A stretch of 64,000 nucleotides of DNA, taken from assembly GCA_963701855.1 (NCBI GenBank), contig CAVPBK010000005.1, forward strand, positions 96,001 to 160,000. Reading direction: 5' to 3'. The DNA is from Nitrospirota bacterium. GTDB lineage: Bacteria; Nitrospirota; Nitrospiria; Nitrospirales; Nitrospiraceae. Each line of letters starts with the position of its first letter. Positions within the stretch are counted from its first letter, which is position 1. The translations under genes and the position numbers were made by a program. This document shows positions 6,716 to 38,717 of this stretch, piece after piece. Under the pieces are notes generated by a model. The model had not been told where the DNA came from. It searched no databases and worked only from the letters and a program-made list of their open reading frames with translations.

Positions 6716-7663
6716 TTAGGGCTTCCAGGGCGTCAGTGGCATCAGCGGAGCATCCTTGGCTACCGGTGTAATCGTCAGCGCGGCAATGGCTCCACGAAGG
6801 GCTCCAGTGAGCGAATGCGTCACAATCGGATAGACCCCGGGTGATTCGGAGACCAAGTCGAATGTGGCGGCGCTTCCGGGTCCTACGACATAGGTTTGTA
6901 CCCCTGTGAGTTTGTTGGCAGGGTTCCCGCTCTCGTAGACGTTGTCCCAAATCTCGCCGATCGGGTGGAGCGAGGAAAACTCGTTGGGGCCCGCGTTCAC
7001 AAAATAGATCCGGACCCGCTCATTCGGTTTCGCCTCTAGCGCTTCCGCGCCGATGAAGAAGGGATGATACTTGAAGATCCCTCCGTTGAAGACCGTATAG
7101 TCGAACTTCCGAGCGAACATGGCCTCGACATCGTCGGGGTTCTTCCAGAGCTCAGATTGGACCAACAAAAACTCCCGGTCCGCTTTCGGCCAGACCTTCG
7201 GATCCTTGGGATCGACGATAATCGCGCCGAACATGCCGCGCGCGACGTGCTGAATCATGGGTGCTGCGCCGCAATGATAGAAAAACACGCCGGGCTTCTT
7301 CGCCACAAAGGTGAAGGAAATGGTTTCTCCCGGATTGATGGCCCGGTAGTTCTTCAGGAAATCGATTTCCGCCGCATGGAAGTCCATGGCGTGTGGAAAA
7401 ACATTGGTCTTGGGATTCTCCAGCGTGAAGTTGACAGTGTCACCTTCCGTGACCCGCACGGCCGGCCCCGGCATCTGGCCGTTGAACGTCCAGGCCTTAT
7501 ATTTCGTTCCCGTTCCTTCAATCACGATTTCCGTTTCGAGCGCCGTCATCTTGACGTCATGGGTCTTCGCGGATGCCTCGGAGGGCAATCCCATCAATCC
7601 GGCAATCGCAAGGGCCGTGGCCCCTGCGATGGCCATGAGTTGAGGTGATCGTCTTTTCATCAT
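6716..7663 (-). CDS. nirK: Copper-containing nitrite reductase, Nitrospira type, all ligands intact
   Basis: HAMDFH, YHC-x7-H-x4-M, SSLHPIGE and VTHSL give the full T1/T2 Cu set plus catalytic Asp and His; signal peptide; GAGGAG RBS. Confidence 0.92.
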   Translation of the reverse strand: MMKRRSPQLMAIAGATALAIAGLMGLPSEASAKTHDVKMTALETEIVIEGTGTKYKAWTFNGQMPGPAVRVTEGDTVNFTLENPKTNVFPHAMDFHAAEIDFLKNYRAINPGETISFTFVAKKPGVFFYHCGAAPMIQHVARGMFGAIIVDPKDPKVWPKADREFLLVQSELWKNPDDVEAMFARKFDYTVFNGGIFKYHPFFIGAEALEAKPNERVRIYFVNAGPNEFSSLHPIGEIWDNVYESGNPANKLTGVQTYVVGPGSAATFDLVSESPGVYPIVTHSLTGALRGAIAALTITPVAKDAPLMPLTPWKP

Positions 7664-7891
7664 GGTTGGACTCCTCTCTGAAATGGTTGGGCGAACTTCT
7701 CCGGGCAAATGTGCAACTGGTCTTTTCTTATGTGAAGGGTCTCACTGGCACTTCGTCTGTATGTGAGGAAAAGAATAACAGAGCAAAATTGTCTAGTGTA
7801 TATCGTAGCGTTCGGTTAAGAATCAAGCCCTTTGTTAGTCCCAAATGAGCCTGTGACCCAAAACCCGAAAAGTAGGCCAGGGGGAGCTTGA

Positions 7892-9047
7892 GGAAATGCC
7901 CCGCGACGTGGTCTTCTTAACTCAGAAGGAGGACCCGACGAGGGCACGACGACGAGGGTATATCGAAGAGCAGCTCCTGGCGGCCGTGCGACACGCGGAG
8001 GGCGGGACGACCGTAGTCGAGGGCTGTCGAGAGGTGGGGATCAGTGAGCAGACGTTCTCCCGCTGGAAACGAACGTACGTAGGGCTGGGGCTGAGCGAAC
8101 TCCGCGAGCTCCGGCAACGCCGAGAAGAGACCACGAAACTGAAGCGGCTGGCGGCCGATCTCTCACTTGATCGGCATAGGTTGCAGGAGATGGTGCGAAA
8201 AGAGCGGTACGGCCTCGGGACCGGCTGGCGCTGGCCCGCTGGGCGCACACGACCTACCAGGTCAGTGAGCGCCGACTCACGGTCGTGTTGCGGCGGGAGG
8301 GGGGCACGTGAATGCGAAACGGATCTATCGGCTGTATACGGACGAAGGGCTGACGGTGCGGACGAAACACCGCACGAAGGCCGCAGGCCGAGCCCGTGTG
8401 CCGCAGGCCCGAGCCACGGCGCCGAACGAGCGGTGGAGCATGGGTTTTATGAGCGAGCGTGTGGCGAATGGCCGCTGGGTTCGGATTCTGACCGTCGTGG
8501 ACCAGTTTACACGGGAGTGTCTGTGCTTGGTGGCGGATCAGTCGCTCACCGGAGAGACGGTGGCGGAGGCGGTAGAGCCGGTGGTGATGCACCGGGGCGC
8601 ACCGCGTGCGCTCACCGTGGACAACGGCAGCGAATTTTCCAGCCGCGTCATGGATGCCTGGGCCTACCGGCATGGGATCCCGCTGGATTTTATTCGACCG
8701 GGGAAGCCGGTGGCGAATGGCTTCATCGAGAGTGTCAATGGGCGGCTCCGTGATGAGGGTCTGAATGTGGACGTGTTCTTCACGCTGGACGAGGTGCAGG
8801 AGAAATTGGCGCGATGGCGGACGGACGATAACCTCCTACGCCCGCACAGTGCGTTTCAGGATCAGGCGCCAGTCTCTTTTGCGGCGAAGTGGTTCGCCGC
8901 CCGGCCGACGGCTCCGGCCTCTTCCGAATTGCTGGAGCCACTCACGTGAGCGATGCGAGCGTTGTAACGCTGCATGGGCGGCTCACACCGATCACGCGCA
9001 GGCCAATTCCTCAGGGCTCGATCGGTCTACATTCGCGGGGCGGGTCA
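7892..9047 (+). mobile_element. IS3-family element, degenerate (OrfA ~7960-8210, OrfB ~8308-8949)
   Basis: OrfA CREVGISEQTF.RWK..Y.G...LRELRQ; OrfB RWSMGF (first catalytic Asp replaced by Gly), TVDNGSEF, PGKP..NGFIES.NGRLRDE. Imperfect IRs share GCCCCGCGA; right end ...GCGGGGCGGGTCA. Confidence 0.88.
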
Positions 9048-9736
9048 GAAAGCCACAACATCGATTTTCATGCGGTCACTGGACCGGGTGGTGGAGCAGC
9101 AAGCCTCAATACCGACCAGGGGAGGAAAGTGAGTTACGATTTAAGGCCCTCAATGCTGGCCTCCATTTCTATCACTGTGCCACCGCATCGCCATCCATTC
9201 CTGAACACATTGCGAATGGAATGTATGGCGGGATCTTAGTTGAGCCGGTTGGCGGGCTTCCCAAGGTAGACAAAGGGTTTTATGTCGTGCAGAGCGAGTT
9301 TTACACCAAGCCTGGCAAGAAGGGCGAGACCTTGGAATTTTCGTTCGAAAATGGGTTAACGGAGCACCCGTTACATGTGGTGTTTAACGGCATGGCGGGT
9401 TCGCTTATCAAGAATCTTCTGATGGCCAAGGTGGGCGACACCATTCGAATGTATTATATCAACGCAGGACCCAATCTGACCGAAAATTGGCACGTCATCG
9501 GCGAGATATTTGACAGGGCGTACCCCAAGGGTTCCTTGATTATGCCTCCATTGCAGAACGTCCAAACCACTGTCGTGCCGGCTGGTGGCTCTTCCATGGC
9601 AGAGTTTAAGATCGAGGTGCCTGGAACCTATATCAATGTGGACCACGCAATCTTCCGCATCGCAAAAGGCGCCGTTGGCCTGATAAAGGTGGAAGGTGCG
9701 GAGTAATCGGACATCTACAAGAACCTCCTGAAGTAA
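9048..9736 (+). pseudogene. nirK: Truncated AniA/NirK-type copper nitrite reductase
   Basis: Begins at the IS right end with ESHNIDFHA; frameshift near 9120; then YHCATASPSIPEHIANGM, WHVIGE, VDHAIFR; probable premature TAA at 9704; 5' third missing. Confidence 0.88.
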
Positions 9737-29259: not shown

Positions 29260-30969
29260 ATGACCAATAAATTCTGGTTGAGATGTGGCCTGGTAGTTTG
29301 CGGGGCGTTGCTTACGGCAACAGCTCAGGCAGACTTCCCCAGCGTCCCCAAGGAAACCTACGAGGCGCTGAACCTTGATCGGTCCGCCAGCCCCAAGCAA
29401 TTGCATGAGGCGTTGACGAAGCGCTTCGTGGATCCAGGCAGAGGCGCGGGGAAAGGGCAGTACGGCCAGTATTGGGAGCCGATCCCAATGAGCAAGTATT
29501 TCGATCCAATGTCGTTCTACAAGCCCCCGACATCGGTCAAGGAAATCGCGACACGCGAGCAGTGCGTGAAATGCCACACCGATGAGTCGCCGGGGTGGGT
29601 GGAACTTTGGAAAAAGAGTGCTCACGCCAATCTTGACAAGATTCGCAAGCTTACCCCAAAAGACGACACTTTCTACAAGAAGGCGAAGTTAGAGGACGTG
29701 GAAAATAACCTTCGCTCGATTGGCAAGCTCGGACCAACAGAGAACTTGAAGGAAGTCGGCTGCATCGATTGCCACGTTGACATCAACACGAAGAAGAAGG
29801 CCGATCACCGGGTCGACCTGAAGATGCCCACTTCCGATGTGTGCGGCAACTGCCATCTACAAGAATATGCCGAGCGCGAGTCCGAGCGCGACACGATCTT
29901 ATGGCCGAAAAACCAGTGGCCGAGGGGCCGCCCGTCGCACGCGCTGGATTACAGGGCCAACGTCGAGACGGATATCTACGCCGGAATGTCGCAGCGCGAG
30001 ATCGCTGATGGCTGCACAATGTGCCACACCAACCAGAACAAGTGCGATAATTGCCATACCAGGCACGAATTCTCGGTGGCCAACTCCCGCAAGCCTGAAG
30101 CCTGCGGCACCTGTCACAGCGGCGCCGATCACAACAACTGGGAAGCCTACAACGGGTCGCAGCATGGGCTGGGGTACCAGGCCTCTAAAAATCAATGGAA
30201 TTGGAATGTACAGCTCAAGGATGCAGTTGCCAAGGGCGGGCAGCGCTTCCCTACCTGCCAGAGCTGTCATATGGAGTATCAGGGCAAATTCACCCACAAC
30301 ACGGTGCGTAAGGTTCGCTGGGCGAACTATCCCTTCGTGCCTGGCATTAGAGAACCTGTATTTGGCGAATGGGGCCAGAAGCGCCTGGATGCGTGGGTCA
30401 AGACCTGCACAACGTGCCACTCCGAGAGCTTCGCGCGCGCATGGTTGGAGTTTATGGACAACGGCACCTCTGAGGGACTCGATAAATACGATGAGGCGCA
30501 CAACGTAGTCCGTAAGCAGTATGACGCTAGACTCCTCACCGGTCAGAGGAACAACCGGCCTGCTCCTCCAGCGCCGGCTAAGGCCCAGTTCGACCAGTTT
30601 TGGCAGATCTACTGGTCGAAGGGCAACAGCCCTACAGCGATCGAGCTCAAGCTCTTCGAAATGGCTGAGGACCATCTGGTGCAACTGCACGTCAGTCTCG
30701 CGCACCAATATCCAGGGTTCACCTATACTGTCGGCTGGGCAGCGATGAACCGGGCTTATGTCGAAATCATGGACGAGGACACCAAGCTTAAGGAAAAGCT
30801 GATGCTGATGGAACGGGTGGCCAAACTCGAGCAGAGCAAGACCAGTAGCCTGCTGGATTTCGATAGCACGGACGGGAAGCTTACGCTCGGCAGCGTGGGC
30901 GGCGGATTGTTGCTGACCGGCACCCTCGCGCTCGCCGGATGGAGCAGACGCAAGAAGAACCAGCGGTGA
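29260..30969 (+). CDS. haoA: Hydroxylamine oxidoreductase (dehydrogenase)
   Basis: Eight CxxCH motifs, DHNNWE catalytic pair, [13 protein letters not shown] cross-link Tyr region, C-terminal TM. Confidence 0.98.
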
Positions 30970-32015
30970 CAACTGGCGCAGCGCAAACGATGGAAGCAGC
31001 GCTGACGCGATCAAGTAGTAGAGTCCTCCCGTCGCTAGGAATAGTCCTAGTGGCGGGAGGACTTCTTATGCTTGGTTGGTTTGCATTTATGTGGCTCAGT
31101 CCAGGCCCAGCGCCGTATCACTACCGCATGGTGGAAGAGGGCGGTATTGATAAGTTCAGCAAGCTCGGACTAGATGCTTGGCCTGACCTTGGCATCAGCA
31201 AGCAAGAGATTCGAGTAGAGGGTGTGGACGAACCGGTAGCTGTAGCCTATCTTGCCCGCCGCGGAAATTCAAAACCCGTTATGCTCGCTTGGGAAAATTA
31301 CATCGGCGATCCATTGGTTTTCGTCGACAGTAAGCTCTCCGAGCTGACCCTGTTGGCACCAGCGATTGCTAAGCATGTGCCGAAAGGCGCTGCCATTCTT
31401 GCCTGGTGGGACACCTCGCGTCAGATTCAGCTCTTGACTGGGTTAGAGACGGTGTTCACCTCTCATCTCAGTGGACCTATTATCACGCCGTCGCTCTGGC
31501 GACCGCGAATCGAGGCGATCGAGAAATACGAACGCGAGTTCTGGGGCTCTACGGTAAGTGCAGAAGAGAGGGGGAAATTCCAACGCTTTGCTGACGCCCT
31601 GTCGGCAGAGTCGACAGAAGGTGCAGCGATGCTGCGTGAACTGACTGGCGGGCGCGAAGCCTATGTCGTGGTTCACGTCTCGGACCTCTACAAACTCGGG
31701 CAGATGCGCCCCGATCGCATCGGTGTCGCCTACAAGGACTTCCCCTTGAAGGGTGGGGATGTGCATGGTCTAAGCGCGATGGTGAAGCGTTGGCAAATGG
31801 ACAACAACTACACTTCCCAAACGGTGTATGGACTCTCGGAGAGTTTAGTGCGCGCCTACTTCCTCACCGATGCGAAGAGCGATAATACGCTGCTCGCACA
31901 GATGCTGCCCATGACGACCTCGAAGCCTCTCGAATTCAAAGCCCTCCAGTTGGTCCATAAACAGGGAGGCTATTGGGTGTATAAGATTCTGTCTGCGCAG
32001 CCATCGAATATCTGA
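30966..32015 (+). CDS. haoB: Hydroxylamine oxidation protein HaoB
   Basis: N-terminal [11 protein letters not shown] motif, position between haoA and cycA; start uncertain. Confidence 0.92.
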
Positions 32016-32140
32016 TTCTTTGAGTGGCCGAAGTGGAAGGACCGGTATTGAAAAACTTGTACACTCTCGATAGAGTAACGCACAGTCGATTTTTCAAGCA
32101 CGACCACGCATAGTTTTCTAGATAGAAAGGAGACACACCA

Positions 32141-32860
32141 GTGAAACATCTCATGACACTCACACTTGCCGCTACGGCGTTGTTTGCTGTCTTAGTCGGA
32201 ACCGCTGCCGCCGAAACTTCATTTGAGGGACGGAAGAAATGTAGTAATTGTCACAAGAGTGAGGCCGATTCATGGCTCAAGACCGCCCATGCCAAAGCGG
32301 TCGACTCGCTCAAAGCCGACAGGAATAAGGAAAAGAATGCAGCCATGGTCAAGGCAAAGCTTGACCCTAAAAAGGACTTTAGCAAGGACAAGGATTGCAT
32401 CGGCTGCCATGTGACTGGATTCGGGGTAGAAGGTGGGTATGAAATTTCGGAGCCGGACAAGTTCTTGATCGGTGTAGGTTGTGAATCCTGCCATGGGGCC
32501 GGTCCAGATTACCGCAAGATTCACCGTAAGGCAGGCGAGGCCTTTGAAAAGTCGAAAAAGGTCACGCCGCGCGAGTCCCTCGCGGAAGCCGGACAAGAGT
32601 TTGAGTTCATTGAGAAGTGCAGCTCGTGCCACCTGAACTACGAGGGCTCTGGGTGGAAAGGGACTAAGAAACCCTACACGCCTTTCACCCCCACTGTAGA
32701 CAAGAAGTATACGTTCGACTTTGAGAAGATGGTGCGGAACAACAAGGCCATGCATGAACACTTTAAGCTAGCGGGCACGTTTGAAGGTCCGCCTACCCCA
32801 AAGTTCCATGAAGAGTTCCAAAAAGATGCCAAGCCGGCTGAAATCGGTAAGGAGGAGTAA
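32141..32860 (+). CDS. cycA: Tetraheme cytochrome c554
   Basis: FEGRKKCSNCH, CIGCH, CESCHG, CSSCH, MHEHFKL. Confidence 0.96.
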   Translation: MKHLMTLTLAATALFAVLVGTAAAETSFEGRKKCSNCHKSEADSWLKTAHAKAVDSLKADRNKEKNAAMVKAKLDPKKDFSKDKDCIGCHVTGFGVEGGYEISEPDKFLIGVGCESCHGAGPDYRKIHRKAGEAFEKSKKVTPRESLAEAGQEFEFIEKCSSCHLNYEGSGWKGTKKPYTPFTPTVDKKYTFDFEKMVRNNKAMHEHFKLAGTFEGPPTPKFHEEFQKDAKPAEIGKEE

Positions 32861-33447
32861 TGGCAGAGTGGGGTAGAGTTTCGATCGGTGCCCTGATTCT
32901 TGGCGCAGCGATTGGCGTCGGAACTATTGCGGTGGTATTCGGAGGTGAAGCGGCCATATCCAGGACCGAGTTCTGCGTGAGCTGCCACTCCGAGACCTAC
33001 CCGTATGAGGAACTGAAGAAGTCCTCGCATTGGGGCGCGCTCGGTTCAGACCCTGGCTGTAAAAACTGCCATGTCCCGCAGGGTTTCCAGAACTTCCATC
33101 TGGCGTTGTGGACACATATCGTGGATGGACTGCCGTTCCTGATAGAAGAGTTCACCGTTGATTACTCGACGATCGAAAAGTTCAATGAGCGGCGGCCGGA
33201 GGCAGCCTACAGGGCACGGATGAAGCTGAAGGGGTGGGACAGCATGACCTGCCGGGCCTGCCACAGTAATCCAAAGCCGCCAGGTGCATCCGCCAAAGCT
33301 GCGCATAAGAAGATGGAGACGGAGGGTGCAACCTGCATCGATTGCCACCAGAATCTTGTGCATAAAAAAGTCCCAGAGACGGATCTCAATGCCAGTCTGG
33401 CTCAAGGCAAGATGGTGTTGAAGGAAGAGAAGAAAGAGAAAGACTGA
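32860..33447 (+). CDS. cycB: Membrane tetraheme cytochrome cm552 (NapC/NirT family)
   Basis: N-terminal TM plus four CxxCH motifs. Confidence 0.95.
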   Translation: MAEWGRVSIGALILGAAIGVGTIAVVFGGEAAISRTEFCVSCHSETYPYEELKKSSHWGALGSDPGCKNCHVPQGFQNFHLALWTHIVDGLPFLIEEFTVDYSTIEKFNERRPEAAYRARMKLKGWDSMTCRACHSNPKPPGASAKAAHKKMETEGATCIDCHQNLVHKKVPETDLNASLAQGKMVLKEEKKEKD

Positions 33448-33828: not shown

Positions 33829-34743
33829 ATGAGGTCGAGTTTGCTACGCCATTTCCCTGAGATTGATGCCGCCTATACGCATAGGAAAAGGGACTACACC
33901 ATAGCGGCGGTCACGTTTGCTTCTGTTGCGATCTGTATGGCGTTTGAAGTAAGCGGGAGTGTGTGGAAACAATATGCCCTAGGGTGTATCGCGTTGGTAT
34001 GTCTGATTGGGTTCTTGCGGGGTGAGACGAGAGAAGTACGATTGCAGGTTGCAGTGGCAGTCGCGTTTACGACAATCGGTGAATATGTGGCGTCTGTCTG
34101 TATGGGTGGCTACACCTATCGCTTCGACAATGTGCCGGCCTATGTGCCACTCGGTCACGGAATGGTGTATTTAACTTCCATTGCGTTGGCGCGTTCCGGG
34201 CTGTTTATTAAATATGCAAGAGTAATTACCACAACAGTGATTGTGATGTGCGGAGCATGGTCGATTTGGGGGATCAGCGGGATCCCAGAACAGGGTGATG
34301 TAGGAGGGGCGGTGCTCTTCTCTGTGTTTTTGATCTGTCTGTTTAGAGGTCGCTCGCCATTGGTGTACCTCGCGGCATTCTTTATTACAACTTGGCTGGA
34401 GATACTCGGCACAGCAGCTGGGGCCTGGAAATGGGCCTTGGTAGACCCTGTGTTTGGTTTGGCCCAGGGAAACCCTCCAAGTGGGGTTGCTGTCTGGTAT
34501 TGCCTTGTTGATGCGGTGGCCCTCACTGGAGGGCCTCTATTATCGCGCGGCCTGGAGAATGCCAGCGGATGGCTTACATCTAAGGGCTATTATCCTGAAC
34601 GAGTGGGGAGACTGTCAGATCTTCTAGGTTTCCGAGGTCATGTACGTGAGGATATTCAAACGCAGATACACCGCACCTCGCAGGCCATCAGTACATCGTT
34701 AAAGAACCCCGATCTTGCCGTCGAGCCTCTCGACAAAACCTAA
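33829..34743 (+). CDS. Conserved polytopic membrane protein of unknown function
   Basis: About 7-8 TMs; repeated E...Y.Y/W.W...NVP/NPP pattern (YTYRFDNVPAYVPLGHG; WKWA...GNPPSG). Confidence 0.8.
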   Translation: MRSSLLRHFPEIDAAYTHRKRDYTIAAVTFASVAICMAFEVSGSVWKQYALGCIALVCLIGFLRGETREVRLQVAVAVAFTTIGEYVASVCMGGYTYRFDNVPAYVPLGHGMVYLTSIALARSGLFIKYARVITTTVIVMCGAWSIWGISGIPEQGDVGGAVLFSVFLICLFRGRSPLVYLAAFFITTWLEILGTAAGAWKWALVDPVFGLAQGNPPSGVAVWYCLVDAVALTGGPLLSRGLENASGWLTSKGYYPERVGRLSDLLGFRGHVREDIQTQIHRTSQAISTSLKNPDLAVEPLDKT

Positions 34744-35014
34744 TTCCACGCCACACCTGGACGAGGCTCATCCCAATTCTCCAACCACAGGACTACATCG
34801 TGATGGCGCTCAAGAGTGCAGGCCGACACCCTCCGTTTGCCCATATTCCCGCCCTGCTCACCAGGGCTCAACCCAGTCAAGCACCGCTGGGGTGACCTGC
34901 GCGAGAAACCCCTTCACAAAATGATTTTCAGTAGCGATGCCCGTAACGGGCCAGGAGTAGAAAGTGTTCAGCCGTCAGCGTGAAGCTAATCTATGAATCA
35001 CCGTGGAACGAGCA

Positions 35015-35034
35015 GGGGGGGCGTACGCCCCCCC
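35015..35034. terminator. GC hairpin between convergent genes
   Basis: GGGGGGGCG-TA-CGCCCCCCC. Confidence 0.45.
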
Positions 35035-35069
35035 TTAATCACCCAATGACCTAAGACTCACTTCTGAGT

Positions 35070-35585
35070 CTACTTCGCGTCATCGCGCACACACCAGACA
35101 TAGTTCGTGTTGGTCTTAAAATCGTTGCCTACGAGGCCATAGTCGAAGTTTACGTCCCACGCGCTCATCGTATAGTCTTCATGCTCCGTCGACGTCCAAT
35201 AGCCAAAAAACTCGATGTTGGAAAATGGATGGCCAGGCGGGAGGGCAGGGGGAGGATATATCGTGTGATCCGCCAGGGTCGCCAACTCTTTGACTGCGGG
35301 CAAGCGCCAGCCCTTTTTGCCACCGACGGTCTTTTTCGCACAGATACCGGCGGCATTTTTCCAAACCGTCCTCGCTCTCGTCGGTATTGTCTCCCATACC
35401 AGCCCCGTCTCATTATCCAGCACCCCCTCATTATTCATGGCCTCTAGCACGACAAACCGCGCGCTCTGCGACTCAGCTGCTTCAGCAGGGGTGGCTCCTG
35501 AGCCGAAACCAGCCAGCGCCAGGCATACAACAGCCAGCCCCACAGCCCCGATGCGGCTCACCCATTTGGTTCTACTGCTTTTCAT
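35070..35585 (-). CDS. Exported Lcl C-terminal / DUF1566 domain protein
   Basis: Signal peptide, VLDNETGLVWE, WKNA..C, GWRLP..EL, YWTST, WCVR. Confidence 0.88.
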   Translation of the reverse strand: MKSSRTKWVSRIGAVGLAVVCLALAGFGSGATPAEAAESQSARFVVLEAMNNEGVLDNETGLVWETIPTRARTVWKNAAGICAKKTVGGKKGWRLPAVKELATLADHTIYPPPALPPGHPFSNIEFFGYWTSTEHEDYTMSAWDVNFDYGLVGNDFKTNTNYVWCVRDDAK

Positions 35586-35704
35586 GTCGACCCTCCCCGT
35601 CTAATGTTACTCTGGTGCGACCCTTACGGCAGTGATGCCATGAGCACTACTGCTATTGAGGCCGCTGTGTCTTGCCATCATCCCAATCATTTCCCTGCAG
35701 GTTA

Positions 35705-36709
35705 CTACAGCCCTTTGAAAAGGCTAGGATTGGTTGGACCATCTATCTTGAGCAGGCCGAGGGCGCCTTTTTCGGTGCGGAAGATCGAATGGTCAACCGA
35801 AACAAACGTGCCGGGCATTTCGCCTTTAAATTCTCCTATGGTCGCTTCACCTGGCGGCACCAGGGTGCTTTGGATACTCTCATATGGCGCTTTTGCCACG
35901 TTACCTCCTGGCCACACCCGATCTAACATCTCGCCGATGACGTGCCACGAAGAATCAAAGTTGACTCCTGCATTGCCAAAGAACCATCGATCGGTCTCTC
36001 CCACTTTAGATCGTAGCGGAACTTTGACCAGCGCGGTCATATGGCCGTTATGCACTATATAAGAAGCATCCGCATCTGTCACCTTTTGATTCGAAAAAAC
36101 CAGGGTATCATTCTTCTTGCCATCCTTCATGTAAAATTCGCTCTGCATGACATAGAATTCTTTTTCGACAGGCTTCAGCCCACCAACCGGCTCAACTAAG
36201 ATCAAGCCGTACATGCCACTCAAAAGGTGTTGTATGTTGGCTGGCGCTGCAGTGGAGGACTGATAGACAAAGAGACCTTGGTTGGTGGCCTTAAATGTTA
36301 TCTGAGCTTCCTTCCCGGGCTCCGCATTGACCAGGGCGGCTCCGCCACTGGCCTTATTGAAGTCAAGATTGTGACTCTGCTTGCTGTCCTTCTTGTTCTT
36401 CAAATGGACTTCAACCGTATCGCCCACCATGACGCGGATCATGGGCCCTGGCACCATTCCATTAACACCCCAGAACTCATAATTGTTATCGTCGCTAATC
36501 GGACCGACCCACTCGGACGCTTCCAGGTTGACCACGACGGTGGCGGGCTGGGTTCGTGTGATGGGAGGGGGAACATTGGGTGCCTTCGTCAGTTGGGCTT
36601 GGATGGTTTCCGCCGACACCACGCCTGCATTGATGGCAAGACAGGGAGCCATGACCAATGCGCTGATCAATCCGGCATGACGCACGCTACGCAAAAAACT
36701 CTTGGACAT
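35705..36709 (-). CDS. NirK-family paralog 'B': domain-1 Cu ligands lost, domain-2 ligands intact
   Basis: HNLDFN (T2 His to Asn), YQSS (T2 His to Gln, T1 Cys to Ser); WHVIGE and VDHSIFR retained. Confidence 0.9.
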   Translation of the reverse strand: MSKSFLRSVRHAGLISALVMAPCLAINAGVVSAETIQAQLTKAPNVPPPITRTQPATVVVNLEASEWVGPISDDNNYEFWGVNGMVPGPMIRVMVGDTVEVHLKNKKDSKQSHNLDFNKASGGAALVNAEPGKEAQITFKATNQGLFVYQSSTAAPANIQHLLSGMYGLILVEPVGGLKPVEKEFYVMQSEFYMKDGKKNDTLVFSNQKVTDADASYIVHNGHMTALVKVPLRSKVGETDRWFFGNAGVNFDSSWHVIGEMLDRVWPGGNVAKAPYESIQSTLVPPGEATIGEFKGEMPGTFVSVDHSIFRTEKGALGLLKIDGPTNPSLFKGL

Positions 36710-36822
36710 GACGCCTCCTTTAATTTTGGATTAACTCTGTGCGGCCATCATCCTGATCACCTGCCTGCAGAGTACTTAAGGCCTTTGTAGATGGCCTAGC
36801 TGGCGGATTCTCTAGACTACCT

Positions 36823-37800
36823 TCAGTCTACCTTCAGCAGGCCAAGGGCGCCTTTGTCCTTTCGATCCTTCACTGGGTCAACGATAGTATAGGTGCCCGC
36901 CTTGACTTTAAACTCTACCATGACAGCGCCACCTGTAGGAATCCTGGTAACCTTGACATTCTCCGCCGGAGGTGAGGTCAAAGAACCCTCGGTGTACACC
37001 CTGTCCATCGTCTGTTCGAGGATCTGCAAAGACGAGACAAAGTTGGGTCCTGAGTTGGTTAAGAAAATCCGAACTGTGTCTCCGGCCTTGGCTCGAAGAG
37101 GATTTTTGACCAGCGAGCTCGCATTGCCGTTATATACAACATGGGAGGGGCGCTCGTCCAACCCATTTTCGTACGAAAACTCCAAGGTCTCGCCCTTGCC
37201 GCCCTCTTTCGAGTAAAACTCGCTTTCCATGATCTGGAATTCTTTTTCGACAGGCTTCAGCCCACCGACTGGCTCAACTATGATCGTGCCGTACATGCCA
37301 TTCGAAATGTGCTCGGGAATGGATGGCGATGCGGTGGCGCAGTGATACAAAAAGACGCCAGGAATGATCATCTTAAACTTTCCCCCGCTCTCCTGCCCTG
37401 GCTCGCTATTGAGCAGGCTAGCCCCGCCGCCTGGTCCCGTGATCGCATGGAAGTCAATATTATGAGATTCCTTGCTGTCCTTATGGTTCTTCAAACGGAT
37501 TTCAACCGTATCGCCCACCATGACGCGGATCATGGGCCCTGGCACGTTTTTATTAAAACCCCAAAACTCATAGTTGTTATCGTCGCTAAGCGGACCGACC
37601 CACTCGTTCGATTCCAGGTTGACCACGACGGTGGCGGGCTGGGTTCGTGTGATGGGAGGAGGAACATTGGGTGCGATCGCCAGTTGGGCTTTGATGGTCT
37701 CCGCCGACACCACGCCTGCGTTGATGGCAAGACACGGAGCCATGACCAATGCGCTGATCAATCCGGCATGACGCACATTACGCGAAAAACTTTTGGACAT
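36823..37800 (-). CDS. NirK-family paralog 'A': domain-1 Cu ligands intact, domain-2 ligands lost
   Basis: HNIDFH and YHCATASPSIPEHISNGM retained; SSLQILE (catalytic His to Gln) and VDPVK (T2 His to Pro). Confidence 0.9.
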   Translation of the reverse strand: MSKSFSRNVRHAGLISALVMAPCLAINAGVVSAETIKAQLAIAPNVPPPITRTQPATVVVNLESNEWVGPLSDDNNYEFWGFNKNVPGPMIRVMVGDTVEIRLKNHKDSKESHNIDFHAITGPGGGASLLNSEPGQESGGKFKMIIPGVFLYHCATASPSIPEHISNGMYGTIIVEPVGGLKPVEKEFQIMESEFYSKEGGKGETLEFSYENGLDERPSHVVYNGNASSLVKNPLRAKAGDTVRIFLTNSGPNFVSSLQILEQTMDRVYTEGSLTSPPAENVKVTRIPTGGAVMVEFKVKAGTYTIVDPVKDRKDKGALGLLKVD

Positions 37801-37908
37801 GACGCCTCCTTTGATTTTGGACTGCCCTGACGGTTTCTTCTCTCATACGACGTGGGACGAACCGAATGGTTTCAGCCCCGGTTCAGGGCATTGTCATTAC
37901 CCGCCTGC

Positions 37909-38370
37909 TTAAGGTTTGTAACATGAGTGGTCGTGCGGCTTGCCCCCGTTCGAGAACTGGTTCTCAAACGCCATCACATGCCAGATCTGCTCCTCCGACA
38001 GCATGCTCTTCCAGGCTTTCATCTTCGTCTTCGGGATACCTTCCGAAATTCGCCAGTACCAGAAGCTGTCGGACCAACGGCAGATATTTTTAGGATCACG
38101 CATATCCCGCGCACCCTTTTTTACGGGTTGACCATCCTTACCATGGCAGCTGCCACAGTTGACCTGCGGATTAGCCTCGCCGCTGTAAATCAGCGCTCCA
38201 TCTTCGATAGCCTTAGGATCCGTCCACCCTCCAGCCGGCATTTTTTTGTCTGCATACTCGGCTGGAACCGGGGGCAAAGGGGGTTCATCTTCAGCGAAGG
38301 CCATGCCCCCTGACAGAATCAGAGCGCTCCCCAGCATCATGATCGACATACCGAAATACCTTCCCGTCAT
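37909..38370 (-). CDS. Periplasmic monoheme class I cytochrome c
   Basis: Signal peptide, CGSCHG, EGIPKTKMKAW axial Met; RBS GGAGG. Confidence 0.9.
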   Translation of the reverse strand: MTGRYFGMSIMMLGSALILSGGMAFAEDEPPLPPVPAEYADKKMPAGGWTDPKAIEDGALIYSGEANPQVNCGSCHGKDGQPVKKGARDMRDPKNICRWSDSFWYWRISEGIPKTKMKAWKSMLSEEQIWHVMAFENQFSNGGKPHDHSCYKP

Positions 38371-38717
38371 TCCCGCCTCCTATTTCTTTAAATGGTGAGT
38401 CTGGTCAATCGACGAGGTCCTGCCTCATGGGGTACATTCAGTAGTGCTCCCCTTTGGGCCACCACATTGGAGATAATCCAGTCCTGCCACACCAACGGCA
38501 GCAGGGACCGTCTAGGCACAACCACAGGCCGGGAAAGTTGTCTACCATGGCGCCCTTCTCTCGATCTGTGGCGGCAATTTAATATACAAATTACCTAGTG
38601 TCAAGAGGTCGTATAGCGCTGTCAACCCAATTTTTCTGTGGGTCATCACTACGGCCTGTATGACATGTCGCATCGCGTATCGGGTCGTCATATCCATGGC
38701 GATCATTTGATGGCTCC

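What the first reader, a model, noticed from the sequence alone, without database searches (positions are those of the whole stretch)
35070..38370. Four-gene periplasmic module: cytochrome c - NirK-A - NirK-B - Lcl/DUF1566 protein
Seen: four co-oriented genes with gaps of about 110-120 bp, all encoding signal peptides, ending at a GC hairpin near 35015. Established: monoheme c cytochromes are common electron partners of the CuNiR type-1 site. Inference: the cytochrome is the dedicated redox partner of subunit A, the only chain with the T1 Cys. The Lcl-domain protein may be an assembly or scaffold factor for the heteromer.
Basis: partly seen in the sequence, partly recalled or inferred. Interest (0 to 1): 0.7.

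Follow-up and report, generated by a model that had tools for sequence, protein, structure and literature searches.

The report
Cytochrome, split nitrite reductase, lectin-fold cluster
Next to its hydroxylamine-oxidation genes, a complete-nitrifying Nitrospira carries a conserved cluster for a small cytochrome c, a copper nitrite reductase split into two complementary half-equipped chains, and a small lectin-fold protein, which is a testable candidate for an unresolved nitric-oxide step of nitrification.

Summary
Four co-oriented minus-strand genes lie at 38370-35070: cytochrome c, NirK-A, NirK-B and an Lcl_C protein. The gaps are 108, 113 and 119 nt. All four have strong ribosome sites and signal-peptide-like N-termini, and a conserved GC hairpin follows at 35035-35014.

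A keeps the type-1 copper ligands plus two type-2 His and the catalytic Asp. B keeps only the two residues that a neighbouring subunit normally supplies. This held in 37 of 37 A and 36 of 36 B orthologues.

Gene order is identical in 38 related loci from two Nitrospiraceae genera. The cluster usually sits beside haoAB-cycAB.

- **Cytochrome:** it also precedes the unsplit sister nirK in 20 of 20 loci, so it is an inherited NirK partner. It was not invented for chain A.
- **Lcl_C orthologue:** it occurs only in split-pair genomes (36 genomes; paralogues elsewhere reach at most 51% identity).
- **Transcription of Lcl_C:** in 19 of 33 loci a terminator-like hairpin lies between B and the gene; 16 of these 19 also have a promoter-like site. 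A single four-gene operon is therefore plausible only for the window's lineage.

A 2017 preprint already mentions nitrite reductase genes next to the HAO cluster. I found no description of the ligand split or the Lcl link. I could obtain no RNA or binding evidence.

The parts
38576..38604 (-). Promoter-like site (TTGACA, 17 nt, TAAATT) about 205 nt upstream of the cytochrome c start
   Evidence: One search scored it 10 of 12. CTTGACAC plus the following AT-rich block is kept in 11 of 25 aligned upstream regions, and TTGACA at the same column in 16 of 25. This is a consensus match only. No transcript start was mapped.
37909..38370 (-). Monohaem class I cytochrome c, 153 aa, signal-peptide-like N-terminus, CGSCH haem motif, conserved KTKM (likely axial Met)
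   Evidence: Pfam PF13442 at 35.3 bits against a cut-off of 27. Weak PDB matches to CcoP and c-552 cytochromes. NC.SCHGKDG and KTKM are invariant in 52 orthologues from split and unsplit loci. Median dN/dS is 0.23.
36823..37800 (-). NirK-A, 325 aa. It keeps type-1 Cu ligands His113, Cys154, His164 and Met169 (own numbering), type-2 His118 and His153, and catalytic Asp116. It lacks the catalytic His (Gln259) and the third type-2 His (Pro309). It is shorter at the C-terminus than B.
   Evidence: Alignments to 6the_A and 2dv6_A. Pattern HDHHCHM+Q+P/A in 37 of 37 orthologues. Clade support 100 in the quick tree. Median dN/dS is 0.26.
35705..36709 (-). NirK-B, 334 aa. It lacks the type-1 Cys (Ser) and both N-domain type-2 His (Asn, Gln). 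It keeps the catalytic His and the third type-2 His, plus Asp and three of the four type-1 ligands.
   Evidence: Alignments to 6the_A and 2dv6_A. Pattern HD-x-(Q/R)-(S/P)-HM-H-H in 36 of 36 orthologues, with the residue at the His100 position variable: N, Q, S, T, G or H. Clade support 100, with a long stem of 0.47. Median dN/dS is 0.24.
35070..35585 (-). Small exported Lcl_C (former DUF1566) protein, 171 aa, with two conserved Cys and no collagen-like repeats
   Evidence: Pfam PF07603, E 1.6e-25. 34 orthologues aligned, 69-92% identical. The orthologue class occurs only in split-pair genomes. Median dN/dS is 0.32.
35014..35035 (-). GC hairpin closing the cluster (9 pairs, loop GUAC)
   Evidence: Fold z = -2.89. 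It is conserved with altered stem letters in 7 relatives printed. It has no U-run and was not flagged by the scan.
29260..33447 (+). Neighbouring haoA, haoB, cycA and cycB (hydroxylamine oxidation module), convergent with the cluster
   Evidence: HaoB TIGR04392 at 361.7 bits against a cut-off of 200. CycA NF043010 at 395.5 bits, just under its cut-off of 400. HaoA PF13447, E 1.2e-133. CycB PF03264, E 1.8e-41. A cycB homologue lies on the Lcl side of the cluster in most related loci.
33829..34743 (+). 304-aa membrane protein of no known family, between cycB and the cluster
   Evidence: No Pfam hit. Whole or fragmentary copies lie on both sides of the cluster in many same-genus loci.

Best explanation
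The cluster encodes a periplasmic electron-transfer unit of comammox Nitrospira. It was built from an older cytochrome c-nirK gene pair.

**Origin.** The nirK was duplicated in tandem, and the two copies lost complementary halves of the copper sites.

**How the enzyme is built (inferred).** In ordinary CuNiR trimers the catalytic type-2 copper sits between two subunits. A catalytic site can therefore form only where the N-terminal domain of A meets the C-terminal domain of B. The enzyme must then be an A/B heteromer with fewer active sites than a homotrimer.

**Electron path (inferred).** The monohaem cytochrome c exchanges electrons with the type-1 copper of A. From there they pass over the Cys-His bridge to the A/B type-2 site.

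**Direction of the reaction (open).** Possibilities are nitrite to NO, or NO to nitrite. The second is made attractive by the position beside haoAB-cycAB.

**The Lcl_C protein.** It joined the locus together with the split and stays strictly linked to it. I take it as a functionally linked periplasmic accessory whose role is unknown.

**Transcription (inferred).** In the window's lineage all four genes are probably one transcript, from the promoter-like site near 38600 to the hairpin near 35025. In many relatives the Lcl_C gene appears to have its own promoter.

**Shown:** gene content, ligand patterns, conservation, linkage and purifying selection.
**Inferred:** heteromer formation, electron path, direction and co-transcription.
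For: **Ligand complementarity**
- Read from HMMER alignments to solved CuNiRs.
- It holds in 37 of 37 A, 36 of 36 B and 20 of 20 unsplit sister proteins.
- Among the 120 best database homologues of B, 64 are full-ligand, 19 are A-type, 36 are B-type and 1 is truncated.
- T2Cu is bound by His100, His135 and His306 between adjacent monomers, with catalytic Asp98 and His255 (passages of PMC5571812).

**Origin**
- A and B each form a clade (support 100). Together they form a clade (support 95) beside the unsplit cytochrome-linked NirK of the same family (quick IQ-TREE).

**Selection**
- All four genes have median dN/dS of 0.23-0.32 (11 species, 55 pairs).

**Cytochrome linkage**
- It lies upstream of A in 37 of 37 loci and upstream of unsplit nirK in 20 of 20 loci.

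**Lcl_C linkage**
- It is present downstream of B in 36 of 36 evaluable loci: 34 full length, 1 cut by a contig end, 1 interrupted by N.
- It is absent from 20 of 20 unsplit loci within 4 kb.
- Family-wide, the orthologue class (at least 69% identity) is in 36 of 371 genomes. All of them carry a B gene or its remnant beside it. The next best matches are at most 51% identical.

**HAO linkage**
- haoAB-cycAB lies 1.6 kb away.
- HaoB is found in 34 of 41 split-pair genomes, against 133 of 371 family genomes overall.

**Window operon signals**
- Gaps are short.
- No terminator-like site lies in the three intergenic gaps, and no promoter-like site lies in any of them.
- The gaps fold no better than shuffles, with z of 0.45, -1.59 and -0.97.
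Against: - No protein-level or RNA-level evidence was obtained.
- A three-membered ring cannot hold A and B 1:1, yet both genes have the same ribosome site. The stoichiometry is unexplained.
- B strictly keeps Asp and three type-1 ligands, and A strictly keeps Gln at the catalytic His position. The simple heteromer model does not require either.
- One genome (L019, 90% complete) has intact B and Lcl_C, but no A or cytochrome at the locus and no A elsewhere.
- In 19 of 33 loci the B-Lcl gap is 412-763 nt; a strong hairpin lies just after B in the 5 read (T-run read in 2, L032 and L034), and 16 of the 19 have a TTGACA-type site. This weakens a strict operon link for Lcl_C.
- All loci come from one family, and horizontal transfer of the whole HAO region has been proposed. 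Linkage could therefore partly reflect co-inheritance.
- Kits et al. argue that NO oxidation by NirK is kinetically unfavourable (passages of PMC6478695).
Confidence: 0.6

Rival explanations
1. The true functional unit is three genes: cytochrome c, NirK-A and NirK-B. On this view the Lcl_C gene is an unrelated periplasmic protein. It happens to lie next door and travels with the HAO-region island.
For: - In 19 of 33 loci the B-Lcl gap is 412-763 nt; the 5 read show a terminator-like hairpin just after B, and 16 of the 19 a promoter-like site. One hairpin has a 13-pair stem plus T-run and was scanned in L032. The promoter site is followed by a conserved leader of about 230 nt.
- Lcl_C paralogues are common: 333 of 371 genomes have some match.
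- In the window's genome the paralogues sit in unrelated contexts, next to CorA, aconitase, PilZ and squalene synthase genes.
- Lcl_C stays intact in a locus where the cytochrome, A and most of B are deleted (L064 and L119).
Against: - The orthologue class is found in no genome without the split pair, and in 0 of 20 unsplit loci.
- It kept its position and orientation through the insertion or deletion of the spacer.
- It is under purifying selection, with dN/dS of 0.32.
Confidence: 0.35
2. There is no heteromer. A works as a homotrimer with an altered two-His catalytic site, and B is a copper-poor paralogue with a separate, non-catalytic role such as binding or regulation.
For: - One genome keeps B and Lcl_C without A.
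- B has a long stem branch of 0.47.
- B retains residues that the heteromer model does not need.
- 1:1 expression signals do not fit a trimer.
Against: - The two chains retain exactly the complementary halves of one inter-subunit site in every orthologue: 37 of 37 and 36 of 36.
- B conserves the catalytic His and the third type-2 His, which would have no metal partner in a B homotrimer.
- The positions that the model predicts to be idle are the variable ones: the His100 position in B and the His306 position in A.
Confidence: 0.12
3. The cluster is an ordinary dissimilatory nitrite reductase with its cytochrome donor. It would make NO from nitrite for redox balancing or signalling and would have no special tie to ammonia oxidation.
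For: - The closest solved relatives are NO-forming CuNiRs.
- The same cytochrome-nirK pair occurs unsplit in relatives.
- NirK roles in Nitrospira are unsettled (passages of PMC6606698 and PMC6852473).
Against: - Placement beside haoAB-cycAB is conserved.
- The genome already has a separate full-ligand NirK at 6716-7708.
- A locus that lost most of the cluster also shows only a cycB fragment, and no HaoB was found in that genome, which is 94% complete. This is a single case.
Confidence: 0.3

Closest known systems
Two-domain copper nitrite reductases of the AniA/class II type (best PDB matches 6the_A, 2dv6_A, 1kbv_A)
   Same: Both chains align end to end (E 1e-72 to 1e-83) over two cupredoxin domains. 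Taken together, A and B hold every type-1, type-2 and catalytic residue.
   Different: Known enzymes are homotrimers of one full-ligand chain. Here the ligands are divided between two paralogues, and neither reaches the NCBIfam cut-off (235 and 239 bits against 296). At most one catalytic interface per trimer is possible (inference).
Cytochrome c-linked NirK: the unsplit cytochrome c-nirK pair of related Nitrospiraceae. Also, from recall, three-domain NirKs with a fused C-terminal cytochrome c (PDB entries of 442-468 residues, such as 3ziy and 2zoo) and the Nitrosomonas ncgABC-nirK cluster.
   Same: A class I monohaem cytochrome c is placed with NirK as the presumed partner of the type-1 copper. 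The identical gene order of cytochrome then nirK occurs in 20 of 20 unsplit loci.
   Different: It is a separate gene, not a fused domain. In 5 split-locus cytochromes (window, L007, L015, L029, L032) two extra Cys occur that the 5 unsplit-locus and 4 same-genus variant cytochromes shown beside them lack; some same-genus lineages have a changed C-terminus (14 sequences shown). The identity of the fused entries and the ncg cluster is recalled, not tested here.
Copper nitrite reductase genes next to the HAO cluster in comammox clade B, and in two clade A genomes (Palomo et al., bioRxiv 10.1101/138586)
   Same: Same locus type. Records titled Nitrospira sp. CG24A, CG24B and CG24C are among the loci found.
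   Different: The passages I read mention only the presence and position of the genes. They do not mention the ligand split, the cytochrome or the Lcl_C gene. The supplements were not readable, because bioRxiv supplements are closed.
Legionella collagen-like protein Lcl, C-terminal domain (DUF1566; PMC11162425)
   Same: Same Pfam domain. [quoted passage not shown]
   Different: The Nitrospira protein has no collagen-like region and no N-terminal helix. It has two conserved Cys, whereas Lcl-CTD is reported to have no disulfide. No sequence match to any PDB chain was found at E up to 1. Trimer formation was not tested.

Membership tests
Copper-containing nitrite reductase (NirK, TIGR02376) | Two cupredoxin domains homologous to solved CuNiRs | tested here: met
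   A: 6the_A at E 1.8e-83 over residues 36-324. B: 1e-81 over residues 35-333. Pfam Cu-oxidase_3 in both.
Copper-containing nitrite reductase (NirK, TIGR02376) | Score above the curated family cut-off (296.3 bits) | tested here: not met
   A scores 235.1 bits and B scores 238.6 bits.
Copper-containing nitrite reductase (NirK, TIGR02376) | Type-1 copper ligands His, Cys, His, Met in one chain | tested here: inconclusive
   Met in A (HCATASPSIPEH...M). Not met in B, where Cys is replaced by Ser in 35 of 36 orthologues and by Pro in 1 of 36.
Copper-containing nitrite reductase (NirK, TIGR02376) | All three type-2 His plus catalytic Asp and His in one chain | tested here: not met
   A has two His and Asp. 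B has one His, the catalytic His and Asp. The full set exists only in A plus B together.
Copper-containing nitrite reductase (NirK, TIGR02376) | Trimeric assembly with copper at subunit interfaces, and nitrite reduction activity | not testable with these tools
   Needs purification, metal analysis and assays, or a multimer model.
Class I c-type cytochrome | Single CxxCH motif, distal Met and export signal | tested here: met
   PF13442 at 35.3 bits against a cut-off of 27. CGSCH and KTKM are invariant in 52 orthologues. The Met as axial ligand is inferred.
Lcl_C / DUF1566 domain proteins (PF07603) | Domain match above the gathering score | tested here: met
   90.1 bits against a cut-off of 34.9, covering profile positions 3-117 of 117.
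Lcl (Legionella collagen-like adhesin) | Collagen-like repeat region and N-terminal anchoring helix | tested here: not met
   The 171-aa protein consists of a signal peptide plus one domain. It shares only the domain and is not an Lcl orthologue.
Single operon of four genes | Same strand, short gaps, no internal terminator or promoter, one terminal hairpin | tested here: met
   Shown for the window. The 5 long-gap relatives read (of 19 of 33 loci with a 412-763 nt gap) show a hairpin after B, and 16 of the 19 a promoter-like site before the Lcl_C gene.
Single operon of four genes | One transcript spanning all junctions | not testable with these tools

The most novel reading that the evidence does not exclude
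The cluster encodes an obligate heteromeric copper enzyme with a single catalytic type-2 site per trimer. It is wired to its own cytochrome c and assembled or capped by a trimer-prone lectin-fold protein. It would be the missing NO-to-nitrite oxidoreductase that takes the product of hydroxylamine dehydrogenase in clade B comammox Nitrospira, and in those clade A lineages that received the HAO region.
Probability: 0.15. Interest if true: 0.9.

Novelty: new variant of a known kind. Interest (0 to 1): 0.66.

Why it matters
Comammox Nitrospira lack nitrosocyanin, and the enzyme that turns NO from hydroxylamine oxidation into nitrite is unknown. NirK is one named candidate (passages of PMC6478695).

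This cluster offers a concrete target for that question. It contains a NirK derivative that evolution has rebuilt into two interdependent chains, kept beside haoAB-cycAB, with a ready-made electron partner. It can be cloned and assayed in both directions.

It would also be the first natural copper nitrite reductase in which the inter-subunit active site is split between two gene products. That would allow type-1 and type-2 sites to be manipulated on separate chains.

The strict linkage of an Lcl_C protein gives a first functional lead for a very widespread domain of unknown role.

Tried and rejected
**RNA evidence**
- The look-up of sequencing runs listed 14 metatranscriptome runs holding 0.18-0.34 of the sampled words.
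- Unlaid shares are no evidence of expression or habitat.

**Binding of Lcl_C to A+B**
- Complex prediction with alignments for all three chains scored 0.00 in two runs. The verdict was 'no answer'.
- This counts neither for nor against binding.

**Structure of Lcl_C**
- AlphaFold2 on 30 close orthologues gave mean pLDDT 43.6. That is too poor for a fold search, so none was run.

**Solved structures for Lcl_C**
- The sequence search gave no hit at E up to 1.

**Rfam scan of three long-gap loci**
- The only hit was a chance miRNA match at E 0.052.

**Contexts of the four Lcl_C paralogues in the window's genome**
- No common theme emerged.

**Lipoprotein reading of Lcl_C**
- Rejected. The Cys in the hydrophobic stretch is replaced by Phe in 4 of 34 orthologues, and an A-x-A site follows.

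**In-frame cytochrome-NirK fusion in L006 and L064**
- Rejected. The joined pieces are in different frames (my arithmetic on the coordinates).
- These are deletions or assembly errors.

**Literature searches**
- Searches for a described split or heteromeric NirK, and passages of PMC10999283, PMC6852473, PMC6606698 and PMC12342949, found none.
- The library lacks most subscription journals.

**Earlier notes of this scan**
- Look-ups by words and by the Lcl_C sequence found nothing.


Full report
**Observation**

The window holds four minus-strand genes at the coordinates given:

| Gene | Coordinates | Length |
|---|---|---|
| Cytochrome c | 37909-38370 | 153 aa |
| NirK-A | 36823-37800 | 325 aa |
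| NirK-B | 35705-36709 | 334 aa |
| Lcl_C protein | 35070-35585 | 171 aa |

- The gaps are 108, 113 and 119 nt.
- Each start codon follows a GGAGG-type ribosome site, and each product begins like an exported protein. I read this; no predictor was run.
- Pfam and NCBIfam give PF13442 for the cytochrome, Cu-oxidase domains plus TIGR02376 below cut-off for A and B, and PF07603 (E 1.6e-25) for the last gene.
- A 9-pair GC hairpin lies at 35035-35014. The surrounding 110 nt fold with z = -2.89. It has no U-run.
- The only promoter-like site on this strand outside coding sequence is at 38604-38576, about 205 nt before the cytochrome gene.
- No terminator-like site lies in the three gaps, and the gaps fold no better than shuffles.

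**The two NirK chains**

- A and B are 61% identical. Both align over their whole length to solved copper nitrite reductases, with 6the_A the best match at E 1.8e-83 and 1e-81.
- Against those alignments, A keeps the four type-1 ligands, two type-2 His and the catalytic Asp. It has Gln for the catalytic His and Pro for the third type-2 His.
- B has Ser for the type-1 Cys, and Asn and Gln for the two N-domain type-2 His. It keeps the catalytic His and the third type-2 His.
- The type-2 copper is bound by His100, His135 and His306 between adjacent monomers, with Asp98 and His255 as catalytic residues (passages of PMC5571812). That His306 and His255 come from the neighbouring subunit is established knowledge that I recall; I did not read it in those passages.
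- The two chains therefore hold complementary halves of one inter-subunit site.
- The pattern is not a quirk of this genome. It holds in 37 of 37 A-type, 36 of 36 B-type and 20 of 20 unsplit sister sequences taken from related genomes.
- Among the 120 best database homologues of B, 64 are full-ligand, 19 are A-type, 36 are B-type and 1 is truncated.
- The positions that a heteromer would leave idle are the variable ones: the His100 position in B and the His306 position in A.

**Where the cluster occurs**

- I confirmed the neighbouring haoA, haoB, cycA and cycB at 29260-33447.
- A search of 371 genomes of the same family, one per species, found full-length B-type genes of at least 84% identity in 36 genomes of two genera.
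- Counting fragments and remnants gives 41 genomes.
- I fetched 38 such loci and 20 loci around the unsplit sister nirK.
- The order cytochrome, A, B, Lcl_C is the same in all split loci.
- Of 39 loci including the window, 28 have all four genes full length. Seven are cut by contig ends or an N run.
- Four carry lesions:
  - L006: cytochrome and A truncated.
  - L010: a stop in B and a frameshift in the cytochrome, in an assembly with many frameshifts.
  - L019: no cytochrome or A.
  - L041: B frameshifted.
- A second set of 45 loci with record titles gave the same picture. It is drawn from the same kind of species collection and is not independent.
- That set includes records titled Nitrospira sp. 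CG24A, CG24B and CG24C, Ga0074138, ST-bin4, UBA2082 and RBC083.
- HaoB is found in 133 of 371 family genomes and in 34 of the 41 split-pair genomes. A cycB homologue flanks the Lcl_C side in most loci.

**Origin**

- In a quick maximum-likelihood tree (SH-aLRT only, midpoint-rooted with six distant NirKs), A and B are each one clade (support 100).
- Together they are one clade (support 95) next to the unsplit cytochrome-linked NirK. B has the longer stem, 0.47 against 0.17.
- This fits a single tandem duplication followed by complementary loss.
- Sequences from the second genus nest inside those of the window's genus.
- This agrees with the transfer of the HAO region from clade B to some clade A genomes proposed by Palomo et al. 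[quoted passage not shown]
- All four genes are under purifying selection. Median dN/dS is 0.23, 0.26, 0.24 and 0.32 over 55 pairs of 11 species.
- Selection is somewhat more relaxed than on the unsplit pair, at 0.13 and 0.14 over 28 pairs.

**The cytochrome**

- A cytochrome gene lies directly upstream of A in 37 of 37 loci that have A.
- It also lies upstream of the unsplit nirK in 20 of 20 loci: 18 full length, 2 partial or divergent.
- The haem motif and a KTKM segment are invariant in 52 sequences.
- The pairing is thus older than the split.
- The reading 'redox partner of NirK' is well supported by linkage. 'Dedicated to A' follows only because A alone has a type-1 site.
- In 5 split-locus cytochromes (window, L007, L015, L029, L032) two Cys occur that are absent from the 5 unsplit-locus and 4 same-genus variant cytochromes shown beside them (14 sequences shown).
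- A paralogue in the same genome (49% identical) sits beside a cytochrome bd-like oxidase gene.

**The Lcl_C protein**

- It is present downstream of B in 36 of 36 evaluable loci and absent from 20 of 20 unsplit loci.
- Family-wide, 333 of 371 genomes have some Lcl_C match.
- The orthologue class is sharply set apart. It has at least 69% identity and E at most 9.7e-74, and occurs in 36 genomes, all with a B gene or remnant beside it. The next matches are at most 51% identical, with E at least 3.1e-39.
- It therefore arrived with the split and stays with it.
- In 19 of 33 measured loci, however, the B-Lcl gap is 412-763 nt rather than 117-125 nt.
- The long gaps read (5 of the 19) begin with a strong hairpin; a T-run follows it in 2 of the 5 printed (L032, L034). 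One example has 13 pairs and was scanned in L032.
- They also contain a TTGACA-type site, found in 16 of 19 by pattern, followed by a conserved leader of about 230 nt.
- In those species the gene probably has its own transcript.
- The window's short gap looks like the long form with the stretch between two GGAGGG motifs missing. I could not settle which form came first.
- Its function is open. [quoted passage not shown] That is a lead, not a test.

**Cases that cut against a simple story**

- One genome (90% complete) has intact B and Lcl_C, but a different gene where A and the cytochrome should be, and no A elsewhere.
- One locus joins cytochrome residues 1-84 to B residues 238-334 out of frame, with Lcl_C intact and only a cycB fragment. 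No HaoB was found in that genome, which is 94% complete.
- These may be real decay or assembly faults.
- A ring of three cannot be 1:1, yet A and B share the same ribosome site.

**Direction of the reaction**

- Nothing here decides it.
- The genome has another, divergent NirK with all ligands at 6716-7708. The split enzyme is therefore an extra, HAO-linked system.
- Kits et al. state that the NO-oxidising enzyme of comammox is unknown. They list reversed NirK as a candidate but judge its kinetics unfavourable (passages of PMC6478695).

**Novelty and limits**

- The position of nitrite reductase genes by the HAO cluster is in print.
- I found no description of the ligand split, of a heteromeric CuNiR, or of the Lcl_C link (searches; passages).
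- Subscription journals and the preprint's supplements were not available to me.
- Three genomes flagged as unpublished (G058, G062, G011) enter only the family denominators.

Noticed in passing
window 9036-9727 (+), with ORF 7896-8753 (+): A third NirK copy is reduced to a remnant. The first 106 or so residues are missing next to a transposase-like ORF (HTH_Tnp_1), and there is a frameshift near residue 130. What remains carries the full ligand set (SHNIDFH, YHCATASPSIPEH, WHVIGE, VDHAIF) and the A-like type-1 loop.
   Followed up: partly
window 6716-7708 (-): A divergent 330-aa NirK, 31-34% identical to A and B, has all type-1, type-2 and catalytic residues. Most genomes in the family-wide search have a best match to B of only about E 1e-30, in the range of this gene's own match, so it probably represents the widespread Nitrospira nirK. 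The split pair is therefore not the genome's only NirK.
   Followed up: partly
L015-L040 (long-gap loci), between NirK-B and the Lcl_C gene; absent from the window (35586-35704): An insert of 300-650 nt holds a terminator-like hairpin, a conserved TTGACA-N16-18-TATTAA-like site and a conserved leader of about 230 nt. The leader has a second copy of the ribosome-site motif and a CCCTC stretch that could mask the real one. RNAalifold gives 48 pairs, 7 of them with double changes. There is no Rfam family.
   Followed up: partly
window 33829-34743 (+); L008, L009, L011, L014, L025, L026 and others: The 304-aa membrane protein gene of no known family occurs whole or in pieces on both sides of the four-gene cluster in many same-genus loci. 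This looks as if the cluster had been inserted as a cassette between cycB and the AsmA-like gene.
   Followed up: no
window 37620-37830 and 36530-36740 (-): The 5' ends of A and B, and the 30 nt before them, are nearly identical in the window: 55 of the first 60 residues, against 61% overall. In the other genus the two signal peptides differ clearly. This suggests recent gene conversion from B to A in the window's lineage.
   Followed up: no
window 38371-38440 (-) and the same place in L044-L063: About 60 nt just upstream of the cytochrome ribosome site are conserved across split and unsplit loci (CCATGAGGCAAGACATCGTCGAGAGACGA..TCACCA, with a short inverted repeat). This could be a regulator site or a leader structure of the cytochrome-nirK unit.
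   Followed up: no
L008, L009, L014, L026 (160-164 aa) and L012, L017, L025, L027 (141 aa): A same-genus subgroup has cytochrome variants, 62-74% identical, with a different or shorter C-terminus. They lack the two extra Cys. In four loci they overlap the start of A by 11-23 nt.
   Followed up: no
L019 and L089; L064 and L119: Two natural lesions were seen. In one, B and Lcl_C are kept while A and the cytochrome are replaced by a 517-aa gene. In the other, an out-of-frame join of cytochrome residue 84 to B residue 238 leaves Lcl_C intact and cycB reduced to a fragment.
   Followed up: partly
G000:C6:448826-449392 (L076:3914-4480, -): The closest paralogue of the cluster's cytochrome (49% identical) lies next to a cytochrome bd-like oxidase subunit I homologue.
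   Followed up: no
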